Under the pieces are notes generated by a model. It had not been told where the DNA came from, did not search any database, and saw nothing but the letters and a program-made list of their open reading frames with translations. A program made the translations under genes and the position numbers. Positions 4,530 through 6,686 of a stretch of DNA of 64,000 bases are shown here, in pieces. Source of the stretch: Alphaproteobacteria bacterium (GTDB lineage: Bacteria > Pseudomonadota > Alphaproteobacteria > Rs-D84); the NCBI GenBank assembly GCA_017629245.1, contig JAGBXO010000003.1, forward strand, positions 1,897 to 65,896. Direction: 5' to 3'. Within the stretch, counting starts at the first letter, position 1, and every line of letters starts with the position of its first letter.

Positions 4530-6686
4530 ATGAAAAGTCAAAAAATCGCAAATTCTTTCAAGAATGCCATGGGCACTGTATTTTTGCTGGCCGGTGCGTT
4601 TTTTGTTTGCTCTACATTTTTATCAATTCGTACTGTTATGGCGGATCCGATTGCGCCAATAAATGACTTGACGAATGCGCGTGGTCAGGGGCGTGCCCAA
4701 ACAACGCGTGCGTCTGGTCGTACAAATCCGCGTGCGAATGCAACACGTACAACACGCAATATCGTATCGCGTGCGGCGGTTGCGCCTGCAAATATTGCTG
4801 ATGCTAATAACAGAACGGCACCATCGCGCACAACAAATACATCTCGTGCGGTGACATCGCGTGCAGCAATTAATCGTGCAACAACTGCAACAAATCGTGC
4901 AAATGCAGGCGGTGTTCGCAATGTTGTGTCGCGTGCAACAGCTGCAACAAATCGTGCAAATGCCCGTAATACGCGTTCTGTTCGTGCGCGCACAGCGGTT
5001 GCGACATCTGCAAACTCTGCTGCAAATCGCGCGCGTGTTTCTATGGGGGCGGGCAGTTTGCGTGGTAATAATGGTTCTGTATCATCCTCCTCTTTGGGCA
5101 GCAAGTTATACACCGGTAATTATGCAAACATCATTGATACAACAACTGGTTTGATTTCAAACGAAGCGTTTAATAACTGTATGGAATCATACTATACATG
5201 TATGGATGAAATTTGTACTGCGCGTAATGCGGCCCAGCGTCGTTGCGCATGTGCCGGCCGTGTAAAAGCTTTTGCTGAAGCTGAAGCTGCCCTGGAAACA
5301 GCTAACGAAGAATTAATTAAGGTGTCTGGTGAATTGGCCTTGTTAATCGCGAACAAGGGCAAGGATGTATCCGAAGCGTTCCAGTTAACTGATGCGGAAA
5401 AGGTTATGAACTGTGTTTCATGGCAGGATGTTACAAATCAATATGGGGCCAGTTCAGAACAGGCGATTGATTGGTGTTATAATCACGGAATCTATGGCAG
5501 CAACGGTGGTAAAGTATCATCTTGTTCAAAACCTACATACTGTTCAGAATCTGGGAATGATTTTGGCTTTGATGTGACAAAACTGGATGGTAATGGATCT
5601 GATATCCTGGCGTCCCTTCAGGCTTGGGCCGAAGCCAAAGAACAAACATTAACAATTGTTACCGACGACACAGAAAGCTTGACATCCGCGTTTGACAATC
5701 TGTCCAGTGTGGTCAGTGGTCTGGCGGGTATCGGTGGTGCCTTGGCGAACGCAGATAAACAAACAGACTCGCTGGCAGAAACATGGGGTTATGAATTATT
5801 TGAATATGCGCACAACAATGTGTGTTCTCGTGTTTTGGATTCATGCTTTAACGGTATATTCGAAGCTTGTGGTATGCCACCATCTGGCGCACGCAAATGT
5901 GGCAATGGCGCAGCACAGTGTCCCTACAATTACAACAGCGTGATTACCGTAAATAACACCGGTACATATGAATTGAATTTTGTATCACCAAATACTGGTT
6001 ATACCGCATCAAATTCTGCAACATGCTTTGGTTATACATCTGTGGATGGTGATCCATATGTTGAGTTGCGTGGTCCGGTGGCTGATGCGCGTCGCAGTAT
6101 TATGCAGAAATATGCATTGGACGCAAATGCGGACTGTGACCTGTATGGCGAACAATTGCGCGTGACCGCTCAGAATATCGGATATCAAAAGGTTGCTGCC
6201 CAACAGGCGTTACAACAAAAGCGTTTGGAATTTGCTCAGGCCGAAGAAGAATCTGTTCTGTTGGCTGCAATTGATGCGGGTACAAACTTTAACGAATGTT
6301 TCAGTGAAATCTATGATTGTTATGAAACGCAAATTTCTTCAAATCCATCGTGGACAGATGCGCGTATAAAAACATATTGTGCCCAGGTTGCAAATGTTCC
6401 ACATTGCTATGAAGAAATGATTTGTACGCCATCAACATCACCATTCAAAGCCGTTATTGACAAGGCTGACAGTGATAAATGTAATAACAGTGCAGATTAT
6501 GTGACCAACACATGTCGAAATATCATAACGCTGAATGAAATCTTGAATGGTACCGGTGCAACAGATGTTGCAGAAGTTGATGTTCGAACCAGCACAGATT
6601 CCGCAGCAATTCGTGAAAAGTGCTTGATGGATTCTGGGGCAGATGACCTGCGTAATTGGTTAAAGAATAATCGACCAAAGAACTAA
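4530..6686 (+). CDS. large secreted protein with an N-terminal R/T/N/A-rich 19-aa tandem-repeat region and a C-terminal Cys-rich domain; unknown function
   Basis: ATG at 4530 with RBS aGGGAGAG. Signal peptide 'MKSQKIANSFKNAMGTVFLLAGAFFVCSTFLSIRTVMA'. Repeats of the form 'SRATAATNRANA...'. More than 35 Cys in the distal 550 aa. Followed by a terminator. Confidence 0.7.
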   Translation: MKSQKIANSFKNAMGTVFLLAGAFFVCSTFLSIRTVMADPIAPINDLTNARGQGRAQTTRASGRTNPRANATRTTRNIVSRAAVAPANIADANNRTAPSRTTNTSRAVTSRAAINRATTATNRANAGGVRNVVSRATAATNRANARNTRSVRARTAVATSANSAANRARVSMGAGSLRGNNGSVSSSSLGSKLYTGNYANIIDTTTGLISNEAFNNCMESYYTCMDEICTARNAAQRRCACAGRVKAFAEAEAALETANEELIKVSGELALLIANKGKDVSEAFQLTDAEKVMNCVSWQDVTNQYGASSEQAIDWCYNHGIYGSNGGKVSSCSKPTYCSESGNDFGFDVTKLDGNGSDILASLQAWAEAKEQTLTIVTDDTESLTSAFDNLSSVVSGLAGIGGALANADKQTDSLAETWGYELFEYAHNNVCSRVLDSCFNGIFEACGMPPSGARKCGNGAAQCPYNYNSVITVNNTGTYELNFVSPNTGYTASNSATCFGYTSVDGDPYVELRGPVADARRSIMQKYALDANADCDLYGEQLRVTAQNIGYQKVAAQQALQQKRLEFAQAEEESVLLAAIDAGTNFNECFSEIYDCYETQISSNPSWTDARIKTYCAQVANVPHCYEEMICTPSTSPFKAVIDKADSDKCNNSADYVTNTCRNIITLNEILNGTGATDVAEVDVRTSTDSAAIREKCLMDSGADDLRNWLKNNRPKN
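4668..5045 (+). repeat. imperfect in-frame tandem repeats (57-nt period) inside CDS 4530-6686
   Basis: 4875-4906 and 4932-4963 are identical at 31 of 32 positions at a 57-nt offset. The surrounding sequence reiterates cg(t/c)gc(a/g)aat... units encoding (T/S)RA..N/T motifs. Confidence 0.6.

What the first reader, a model, noticed from the sequence alone, without database searches (positions are those of the whole stretch)
4530..6686. 718-aa secreted protein: disordered R/T/N/A 19-aa repeats followed by a 550-aa domain with over 35 cysteines
Signal peptide, then a basic repeat array, then a Cys-dense domain with CxC/CxxC spacing (CMESYYTCMDEIC, RRCACAGR, CSKPTYCSE...). I cannot place it in any known family. 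It is terminator-insulated and lies roughly 3 kb from the VirB6-like array. It is a candidate surface antigen or adhesin or T4SS-associated component.
Basis: seen in the sequence. Interest (0 to 1): 0.65.

Follow-up and report, generated by a model that had tools for sequence, protein, structure and literature searches.

The report
Orphan exported disulfide-rich envelope protein
This is a real, intact gene for an exported protein with an arginine-rich floppy tail and a cysteine-stapled helical body; it belongs to a previously undescribed protein family found only in a group of small-genome gut bacteria, and its function is still unknown.

Summary
The ORF (4530-6686, +, 718 aa) is real and intact. 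The same protein occurs on at least 8 independent contigs, and 284 species-level genomes of the uncultured gut Alphaproteobacteria order Rs-D84 (Candidatus Enterousia) carry orthologs.

- There are 25 cysteines (24 in the mature protein), not more than 35.
- There is one CxC and no CxxC.
- The "19-aa repeat array" is two clear copies of a 57-nt unit inside a degenerate Arg/Ala/Thr/Asn tail.

Architecture: a cleavable Sec signal; a disordered tail (+22 net charge, 15% Arg, under 1% Lys); then an acidic (-32) helical core.

Cysteines are gained and lost in pairs, and all 249 homologs have an even count, so they form disulfides and the protein is extracytoplasmic. The core is under very strong purifying selection (dN/dS 0.013); the tail is about 9 times looser.

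Nothing matches in Pfam, NCBIfam, PHROGs, PADLOC, PDB sequences, or PDB/BFVD folds.

A paralog ("type B") shares an 85-residue Cys module and lies just downstream in many genomes. Linkage to type IV secretion is not supported.

Best guess, at low confidence: a lineage-specific envelope scaffold or tether that works with its paralog. A partner- or host-binding adhesin is the main rival.

The parts
4414..4442 (+). Promoter-like site: TTTACA, 17-nt spacer, TG-extended TATAAT (11 of 12 matches)
   Evidence: This is a consensus scan only; the number of sites in the region is not above the shuffled expectation. Its position fits a transcript start upstream of both candidate ATGs.
4518..4525 (+). Shine-Dalgarno sequence AGGGAGAG, 4 nt before the ATG at 4530
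   Evidence: Sequence read. Start at 4530 agrees with the conserved N-terminus MKSQKIANS... of orthologs.
4530..4643 (+). Sec signal peptide, residues 1-38. Predicted signal-peptidase I site is V-M-A|D-P (consensus A-V-F-A|D-P).
   Evidence: Distant orthologs have short canonical signal peptides ending AxA|(D/E/Q)P (P0143, P0147, P0156; P0130, P0131). There is no lipobox. AF2 models this segment as a lone helix.
4644..5117 (+). Disordered Arg/Ala/Thr/Asn/Ser tail, residues 39-196, net charge +22. Conserved short motifs RNVVSR, R-x-VRAR and ARVS-x-G near its end.
   Evidence: Composition. pLDDT 30-40. In 249 homologs the tail is 106-213 aa with 12.6% R, 1.1% K and 1.5% D+E. Tail identity is 36% against 74% for the core. 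dN/dS is 0.115.
4875..4963 (+). The only clear repeat: two 32-nt copies (4875-4906 and 4932-4963), 97% identical, 57 nt (19 codons) apart
   Evidence: Lag-19 autocorrelation z = 3.4. Tandem Repeats Finder finds nothing here.
5118..6683 (+). Acidic (net -32) Cys-rich helical core, residues 197-718, with 24 conserved cysteines
   Evidence: dN/dS is 0.013 against the 97%-identical strain.
5160..5417 (+). Module shared with the paralog family (residues 211-296): C-x6-C-M-D-E-I-C-x9-C-x-C followed by helices and a TDAE motif
   Evidence: hhalign of A3 against A4: probability 99.2%, E = 9.5e-20, 85 columns. The motif is present in about 50 distant representative proteins.
6069..6341 (+). Predicted single ~90-residue helix (residues 514-604), containing the invariant DANADCD and QKRLEF stretches
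   Evidence: AF2 (pLDDT 80-95). Heptad contrast is weak.
6687..6718 (.). Bidirectional intrinsic terminator hairpin (14 bp stem, T-runs on both sides), shared with the convergent uvrD gene
3781..4329 (-). Most conserved neighbour: a divergently transcribed PagL-family outer-membrane protein gene with an HFSNG motif
   Evidence: Pfam PF09411, E = 1.3e-12. Directly upstream of the ortholog in 56 of 84 loci. The start at 4329 is inferred from the signal-peptide-like MKKICFCAFFLLPGMLYA.

Best explanation
The gene encodes an exported structural protein of the cell envelope. It is the 'type A' member of a protein superfamily specific to the Rs-D84 / Candidatus Enterousia lineage.

Shown:
- It carries a cleavable Sec signal.
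- All mature cysteines are paired, so they form disulfides in an extracytoplasmic compartment.
- The 158-residue N-terminal tail is intrinsically disordered. Its sequence drifts, but its composition is held at about 13% Arg with almost no Lys, Asp or Glu.
- The acidic helical core is under extreme purifying selection.
- A paralog ('type B') with the same layout shares an 85-residue Cys module and is the ancestral downstream neighbour.

Inferred:
- The cationic tail acts as a flexible electrostatic anchor to an anionic envelope polymer: peptidoglycan, lipid A/LPS phosphates or phospholipid.
- The rigid, disulfide-stapled, elongated acidic core makes conserved protein-protein contacts, probably including type B.
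- Together they would form a scaffold or tether in the periplasm or outer-membrane zone of these reduced-genome bacteria.
For: Export:
- The signal peptide and AxA|DP cleavage site are conserved down to 37%-identical orthologs.

Disulfides:
- 249 of 249 type A homologs have an even Cys count, ranging from 20 to 64.
- C457 and C464 are lost together in 30 sequences, and C651 and C662 in 7. An extra pair is gained near residues 684/689.

Tail:
- AF2 pLDDT is 30-40.
- Net charge is +22 for the tail against -32 for the core. This charge split is conserved in both type A (+19 / -35) and type B (+10 / -21).
- Arg is enriched and Lys excluded relative to the rest of the window's proteins.

Constraint:
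- Core dN/dS is 0.013, tail 0.115.
- In the same genome pair, the core is 99% identical while PagL is 89%, VIT1 92% and ORF3134 85%.

Distribution:
- A near-universal chromosomal gene of the lineage: 284 species representatives and more than 1,198 clusters.

Pairing with type B:
- Type B lies 1-4 kb downstream in 31 of 84 loci.
- It is immediately downstream, with overlapping stop and start codons, in distant MAGs.
- The two share a homologous module.

Genomic neighbourhood:
- Neighbours are repeatedly envelope genes: PagL in 56 of 84 loci; LptD/LptFG and PBP1A-MraY-FtsW-MurG; MraY-FtsW-MurG and TolC/AcrB; OmpA/Skp.

Expression signals:
- A near-consensus promoter, a strong Shine-Dalgarno sequence, CGT-dominated Arg codons and a strong terminator fit a well-expressed monocistronic gene.
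Against: - There is no localisation, abundance or interaction data of any kind.
- The fold matches nothing, so function cannot be read from structure.
- The full-length AF2 model has pTM of only 0.39.
- The synteny with envelope genes is loose and could simply reflect conserved gene order in small genomes.
- Some orthologs carry long C-terminal EGF/EB-like Cys modules. These look more like surface-exposed binding modules than periplasmic scaffolding.
- The lineage is described as lacking a respiratory chain (PMC12306168), so the oxidant for 12 disulfides is unexplained.
- No Dsb-type CxxC protein was seen in this 64-kb window, though the window covers only a small part of the genome.
Confidence: 0.35

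Rival explanations
1. Surface adhesin for a host or partner cell. The Arg-rich tail, or the variable C-terminal Cys modules, would bind anionic glycans or surfaces such as mucin, heparan-sulfate-like polymers, or the LPS or teichoic acids of another microbe. This is functionally like the basic N-terminus of chlamydial OmcB, with the disulfide-stapled core acting as a rigid stalk.
For: - The protein is exported, disulfide-rich and elongated-helical.
- The tail is basic, and it is the strain-variable part: 92% identity against 99% for the core among near-identical strains.
- Some orthologs have variable C-terminal EGF/EB-like extensions.
- The lineage has reduced genomes lacking standard transporters, and its describers suggest it depends on partner organisms (PMC12306168).
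Against: - No route across the outer membrane is evident: there is no autotransporter, β-barrel, lipobox or known sorting signal (sequence).
- A core dN/dS of 0.013 and a tail dN/dS of 0.115 show no diversifying selection.
- No adhesin family is hit.
Confidence: 0.25
2. A component or Sec-dependent substrate of the type IV secretion system. It would act either as a TraN-like mating-pair or contact stabiliser, or as a periplasmic intermediate exported by the T4SS, as pertussis toxin is.
For: - The genome encodes VirB9 and VirB10 homologs.
- A polytopic membrane-protein array lies 2.9 kb downstream.
- The 24 conserved cysteines and the size recall F-type TraN (recalled knowledge, not tested by alignment).
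Against: - No TraN, VirB or Trb model hits the protein.
- No homolog is found in 72,556 plasmids.
- The polytopic array itself has no VirB6/TrbL hit. It is within 6 kb in only about 10 of 84 loci.
- No T4SS genes lie next to the orthologs in distant lineages.
- VirB9 and VirB10 are 50 kb away.
- The predicted fold is helical.
Confidence: 0.07
3. A two-component secreted α-helical toxin or effector. The A/B paralog pair would resemble binary α-pore-forming toxins.
For: - The tandem A-B paralog pair.
- Long helices with a small β element between them.
- The only weak fold hits are colicin Ia and Tc-toxin shells, with E from 0.5 to 4.
Against: - The fold hits are not significant.
- The β region at residues 446-500 is polar and Cys-rich, not hydrophobic.
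- Extreme conservation and near-universal presence as a core gene are atypical of toxins.
- Twelve disulfides would hinder the large refolding that pore formation needs (inference).
Confidence: 0.05
4. A periplasmic enzyme or metal/redox protein in which the conserved Cys, His, Asp and Asn residues form catalytic or metal-binding sites.
For: - Very strong conservation of polar motifs: H428-N-N, D531-A-N-A-D-C-D and WGYELFEYAH.
- dN/dS of 0.013 is at the level of an enzyme.
Against: - Paired gain and loss of cysteines and a universally even count point to structural disulfides.
- The elongated helical model lacks a recognisable catalytic fold.
- No enzyme family is hit.
Confidence: 0.08

Closest known systems
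Chlamydial OmcB (60-kDa cysteine-rich outer-membrane-complex protein)
   Same: Sec-exported. Has a basic N-terminal segment ahead of a large domain with about 24 cysteines, and is an envelope protein stabilised by disulfides. This is the best functional analogy for a charged tail combined with a disulfide-rich body. The OmcB properties are recalled from established knowledge.
   Different: - No sequence relationship: no Pfam hit at E <= 1 in a library that covers DUF11 and Chlam_OMP6.
- The predicted fold is α-helical, not β-sandwich repeats.
- It comes from a different phylum.
- The tail here is about 160 aa long and Arg-specific.
F-type conjugation protein TraN
   Same: Signal peptide, about 600-700 aa, and about 22-24 conserved cysteines. 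The genome also has a T4SS.
   Different: - No TraN model hit.
- No plasmid homolog.
- It is a chromosomal core gene, not in a tra/vir operon.
- The model is helical.
Helicobacter cysteine-rich proteins (Hcp, Sel1-like repeat family)
   Same: Secreted helical proteins whose helices are stapled by disulfides.
   Different: - No SEL1/TPR hit.
- No regular repeat architecture.
- It is much larger, with a disordered basic tail.
Type B paralog family of the same lineage (e.g. L003:13277-15457; MAG proteins FWF97_00885 and FWE50_03370)
   Same: Same layout: signal peptide, basic S/T/A/R tail, then an acidic Cys-rich helical core. Shares a homologous 85-residue module, occurs in the same genomes, and is often adjacent.
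   Different: Beyond the shared module the cores are not detectably homologous. Type B usually has 30 cysteines and ends in CxCxxGY-type modules. It is also uncharacterised.

Membership tests
F-type TraN (Pfam PF06986) | Significant match to the TraN profile | tested here: not met
   No Pfam family at E <= 1 for the protein, and none in 55 homologs at E <= 0.1.
F-type TraN (Pfam PF06986) | Encoded within a conjugative tra/T4SS gene cluster | tested here: not met
   The neighbours are a PagL-like gene, uvrD and dnaQ. VirB9/VirB10 are 50 kb away. No homolog in 72,556 plasmids.
Chlamydial OmcB / DUF11 cysteine-rich envelope proteins | Match to the DUF11 / Chlam_OMP6 β-sandwich repeat models | tested here: not met
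   No Pfam hit. The AF2 model is α-helical.
Chlamydial OmcB / DUF11 cysteine-rich envelope proteins | Basic N-terminal segment plus about 24 disulfide-forming cysteines in an exported protein (a functional resemblance only) | tested here: met
   Tail charge +22, 24 mature cysteines, even counts and paired loss.
T4SS structural components (VirB/Trb families) | Profile match to any VirB/Trb family | tested here: not met
   No Pfam or NCBIfam hit.
T4SS structural components (VirB/Trb families) | Conserved synteny with T4SS genes | tested here: not met
   The polytopic array is near in about 10 of 84 loci. No T4SS families among called neighbours.
Bacterial lipoproteins | Lipobox [LVI][ASTVI][GAS]C at the end of the signal peptide | tested here: not met
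   The only N-terminal Cys sits in the context F-F-V-C-S. Distant orthologs have AxA|(D/E/Q)P signal-peptidase I sites.
Sel1-like cysteine-rich proteins (Hcp) | SEL1 repeat profile matches | tested here: not met
   No Pfam hit.
Rs-D84 'type A' family (defined in this report) | Signal peptide, then an Arg-rich tail, then NI(I)DxxTG, then C-x6-CMDEIC-x9-CxC, then a core with about 24 paired cysteines | tested here: met
   Alignments A1 and A3. 249 homologs analysed. The window protein is 100% identical to P0001.
Known structural folds (PDB, BFVD) | Foldseek match with E <= 0.001 | tested here: not met

The most novel reading that the evidence does not exclude
Types A and B together would form a previously unknown kind of disulfide-stapled, elongated helical envelope lattice or tether, either periplasmic or surface-exposed. 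Arg-only disordered tails would hold it in place. It would replace lost canonical envelope-tethering or attachment systems in the reduced-genome, probably partner-dependent gut Alphaproteobacteria of order Rs-D84, and it would have a new protein fold.
Probability: 0.2. Interest if true: 0.65.

Novelty: new variant of a known kind. Interest (0 to 1): 0.4.

Why it matters
Rs-D84 / Candidatus Enterousia bacteria are widespread in human, livestock, bird and termite guts. Their genomes are about 0.75-1.0 Mb, they lack respiration and standard transporters, and their lifestyle is unknown (PMC12306168).

A genome that small nevertheless keeps a 2.2-kb gene under near-absolute purifying selection, together with at least one paralog of the same design. 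That is a strong hint that these proteins are central to how the cells build their envelope or attach to whatever they live on.

The family is a concrete, testable handle for localisation, partner fishing and cryo-ET on an uncultured lineage, and it is a candidate new fold. On present evidence, however, it remains a conserved hypothetical protein and not a demonstrated new mechanism.

Tried and rejected
Searches of the protein and its homologs that found nothing:
- Pfam, NCBIfam, PHROGs and PADLOC scans of the protein; Pfam also on 55 homologs and on longer and distant relatives.
- PDB sequence search with the single sequence and with a profile. The best hit was an ATP synthase b coiled coil at E = 0.087, which is a compositional match.

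Structure and fold searches:
- Two AF2 models and three Foldseek searches gave only generic long-helix hits: Rad50, MukB, colicin Ia.

Readings considered and rejected:
- TraN or plasmid origin: tblastn against plasmids found nothing.
- 'VirB6-like' neighbours: no support from Pfam, NCBIfam or plasmid tblastn.
- An inner-membrane signal-anchor (TonB/TolA-like) reading of the unusually conserved N-terminal hydrophobic segment. I rejected it because distant orthologs have short canonical cleavable signal peptides with the same AxA|DP site.
- Covalent peptidoglycan attachment through an N-terminal Ala-Asp motif, as in Brucella outer-membrane proteins. The predicted mature N-terminus is D-P, not A-D, so this is left as speculation.
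- Coiled-coil oligomerisation of the 90-residue helix: the heptad signal is weak.

Other checks that gave nothing:
- A look for Dsb-like CxxC proteins in the window found nothing, which is uninformative.
- The literature on Enterousia / Rs-D84 does not mention this family.
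Full report
**Observation**

The + strand carries one long ORF. From the first ATG (4476) it would be 736 aa, and from the ATG at 4530 it is 718 aa. An AGGGAGAG Shine-Dalgarno sequence sits 4 nt before 4530.

A near-consensus promoter-like site lies at 4414-4442 (TTTACA, 17 nt, TG-TATAAT). A 14-bp hairpin with T-runs lies at 6687-6718, directly after the stop codon, and is shared with the convergent uvrD gene. Upstream there is no terminator. Instead there is a divergent intergenic region shared with a PagL-family gene.

The protein has 25 cysteines, 24 of them after the signal peptide, not 'over 35'. There is one CxC and no CxxC, and the recurring spacing is C-x6-C. Cysteine makes up 4.6% of the core, against 1.0% in 26 other proteins of the window.

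The 'repeat array' is mostly low complexity. Tandem Repeats Finder reports nothing there, and the only periodic signal is at lag 19 (z = 3.4). That signal is explained by two 32-nt stretches, 97% identical and 57 nt apart, at 4875-4906 and 4932-4963.

The gene is not an artefact. The identical protein is encoded on at least 8 independently assembled contigs.

**Who has it**

The word-indexed search found more than 1,198 clusters, all unnamed, from Alphaproteobacteria MAGs. A scan of one genome per GTDB species found 284 genomes with a relative. The 80 loci listed are titled Candidatus Enterousia or uncultured Alphaproteobacteria/Rickettsiales from rumen, colon, faeces and similar sources. One exception is a bin titled Bacteroides fragilis, which looks mislabelled.

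An exhaustive HMMER search of 1.84 billion representatives gave only 106 hits at E <= 0.001. Of these, 37 had E below 1e-30, essentially all full-length or fragmentary orthologs. The lineage is order Rs-D84, whose members have genomes of 0.75-1.0 Mb, no flagella, no TCA cycle or respiratory chain and no standard transporters. Its describers suggest it may depend on partner organisms (PMC12306168).

**Anatomy**

1. *Signal peptide, residues 1-38.* Its hydrophobic core is unusually conserved among Enterousia. However, 37-50%-identical orthologs have short canonical signal peptides ending in the same AxA|(D/E/Q)P site. I therefore read it as a cleaved Sec signal and not a membrane anchor. There is no lipobox.

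2. *Tail, residues 39-196.*
   - AF2 pLDDT is 30-40.
   - Composition is R 15.2%, K 0.6% and D+E 1.9%, against a window background of R 4.7% and K 5.1%.
   - Of the 24 Arg codons, 18 are CGT.
   - Across 249 homologs the tail is 106-213 aa long and always about 12.6% R, 1.1% K and 1.5% D+E.
   - Its sequence is only 36% identical where the core is 74% identical.
   - Its last ~60 residues keep short motifs: RNVVSR, R-x-VRAR and ARVS-x-G.

3. *Core, residues 197-718.*
   - Net charge is -32, against +22 for the tail. The same split is conserved in the whole family and in the paralog family.
   - AF2 predicts a mostly helical, elongated domain with a single ~90-residue helix at 514-604. Small β elements lie in the Cys-rich 446-483 region.
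   - Mean pLDDT is 62.8 and pTM 0.39 for the full-length model, and pLDDT 78.4 and pTM 0.52 for residues 408-718.

**Cysteines are disulfides**

All 24 mature cysteines are invariant or nearly so. When cysteines are missing they go in pairs: 457 with 464 in 30 sequences, and 651 with 662 in 7. Many homologs gain an extra pair near 684/689.

All 249 type A homologs have an even number of mature cysteines, from 20 to 64. So do 92% of type B sequences. This is the signature of fully paired structural disulfides, and so of an oxidising extracytoplasmic location. It argues against metal-binding clusters.

**Selection**

Against a strain with dS of about 0.44 (L005), dN/dS is 0.013 for the core and 0.115 for the tail. 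In that same genome pair the neighbouring genes are less conserved at the protein level: PagL 89%, VIT1 92% and ORF3134 85%, against about 99% for the core. The core is therefore as constrained as housekeeping machinery. The tail is relaxed but not under positive selection. This does not fit a variable surface antigen.

**A paralog and a superfamily**

About 50 more distant representative proteins share only residues ~207-295 of the target. The signature is C-x3-Y-x2-CMD-x-(F/I)C-x8-RC-x-C followed by helices. These proteins have the same overall design: a signal peptide, an Arg-rich tail and 25-56 cysteines.

One such 'type B' gene lies 1-4 kb downstream on the same strand in 31 of 84 orthologous loci. 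It lies immediately downstream, in one case with overlapping stop and start codons, in distant MAGs (locus tags FWF97_00885/00890 and FWE50_03365/03370).

Profile-profile comparison confirms homology over 85 columns (probability 99.2%, E = 9.5e-20) but not beyond. Type B is likewise confined to this lineage and is unannotated. No type B copy lies in this window. Here uvrD follows the gene directly.

**Context**

The only widely conserved neighbour is the PagL-family outer-membrane protein gene, directly upstream in 56 of 84 loci. It hits Pfam PF09411 at E = 1.3e-12, and it carries an HFSNG motif that I recall as resembling the PagL His/Ser active site.

Otherwise the neighbourhood changes, but it is repeatedly made of envelope genes:
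- LptD, LptF/G, MacB/FtsX-type and ABC transporter genes (Lol-like) and PBP1A-MraY-FtsW-MurG.
- MraY-FtsW-MurG and AcrB/TolC.
- OmpA and Skp.

They are near the ortholog in only about 10 of 84 loci. Recognisable T4SS genes, VirB10/TrbI and VirB9/CagX, are at 56-60 kb.

**Comparison with known families**

Nothing matches in any of the following:
- Pfam, for the protein itself, for 55 homologs, and for long and distant relatives.
- NCBIfam, PHROGs and PADLOC.
- PDB sequences, by single sequence or by profile.
- Plasmids, by tblastn.
- PDB or BFVD folds, where the best E-values were 0.17-0.49 and all hits were generic long helices.

The closest functional analogy is chlamydial OmcB, which has a basic N-terminus and about 24 disulfide-forming cysteines in an envelope protein. 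TraN is similar in size and cysteine count. Membership in both families fails on the tests that could be run.

**Interpretation**

Shown:
- The protein is exported, processed and fully disulfide-bonded.
- It is a two-part protein, with a cationic disordered tail and an anionic rigid helical core.
- It belongs to a lineage-specific family that is a near-universal core gene.
- It is ancestrally paired with a paralog of the same design.

Inferred, at about 0.35 confidence: it is an envelope scaffold or tether. The Arg tail would bind anionic envelope polymers, and the highly constrained core would make fixed protein contacts, probably with type B.

The main rival, at about 0.25, is a partner- or host-binding adhesin. 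This is favoured by the variable tail and by the C-terminal EGF/EB-like extensions in some orthologs. It is weakened by the lack of any evident route across the outer membrane and by the extreme conservation.

The other readings are less likely:
- T4SS component or substrate: about 0.07.
- Binary helical toxin: about 0.05.
- Enzyme or metal-binding protein: about 0.08.

One open puzzle remains. It is unclear how an anaerobe without a respiratory chain oxidises 12 disulfides per molecule.

**Verdict**

It is moderately interesting as an entry point into the biology of an uncultured gut lineage and as a possible new fold. Current evidence does not demonstrate a new mechanism.

Noticed in passing
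window 9542-14800 (-) and 14851-16167 (+): Five adjacent genes for polytopic membrane proteins (399-498 aa, with 5-9 hydrophobic segments each). None hits Pfam, NCBIfam or any plasmid by tblastn, so the 'VirB6-like' label is unverified. They may form a lineage-specific paralog array.
   Followed up: partly
window 56141-60902 (-): T4SS genes: VirB10/TrbI (56141-58756, an unusually long 871-aa ORF that overlaps the next gene), VirB9/CagX (58590-60116) and a very weak VirB8-like hit (60138-60902). T4SS genes are scattered across the genome, as they are in Rickettsiales.
   Followed up: partly
window 3781-4329 (-): A PagL-family outer-membrane protein gene with an HFSNG motif. The first ATG of the ORF (4458) is probably not the real start. 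A signal-peptide-like MKKICFCAFFLLPGMLYA begins at 4329. This is the most conserved neighbour of the target (56 of 84 loci).
   Followed up: partly
window 463-1122 (+) and 3134-3757 (+): Two paralogous genes (219 and 207 aa) sharing an FEPGKYERYE motif, with no family hit. The gene between them (1136-1981) has only a sub-threshold kinase-like hit (FTA2).
   Followed up: no
window 23366-24673 (+); L085 6758-7939: An unknown secreted 435-aa protein encoded after murG. Its homolog (46% identity) sits immediately upstream of the target's ortholog in a termite-gut MAG. This suggests an ancestral order of murG, this gene, type A, ..., gyrA/merR, type B.
   Followed up: partly
window 4530-4643 compared with L005: Synonymous divergence in the first 38 codons is about 0.04, against about 0.44 in the rest of the gene. 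The sample is small. It could reflect constraint on translation initiation or mRNA structure.
   Followed up: no
window 4685-5113 (-): A 142-aa antisense ORF lies inside the Arg/Ala-rich tail region. It is most likely a by-product of the biased codon composition. There is no evidence that it is a gene.
   Followed up: no
L085 2843-6647 (-): In a termite-gut relative, three large proteins (374-469 aa) with prepilin-like N-termini (ERGAxLLE...) lie just upstream of the orthologous locus. No homologs were found in this window.
   Followed up: partly
L033 (CAVGNU010000001.1): This contig is titled 'Bacteroides fragilis' but carries the Enterousia-type gene and its usual neighbours (VIT1, PagL, dnaQ, uvrD). 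It is probably a mislabelled or contaminated bin.
   Followed up: no
Orthologs P0039, P0040, P0104, P0122, P0129-P0131; type B protein P0441: Some family members carry C-terminal extensions of 200-450 aa made of CxxGY...C EGF/EB-like cysteine modules. One type B protein has a precomputed PF01683 EB-module hit. The window protein lacks such an extension.
   Followed up: partly
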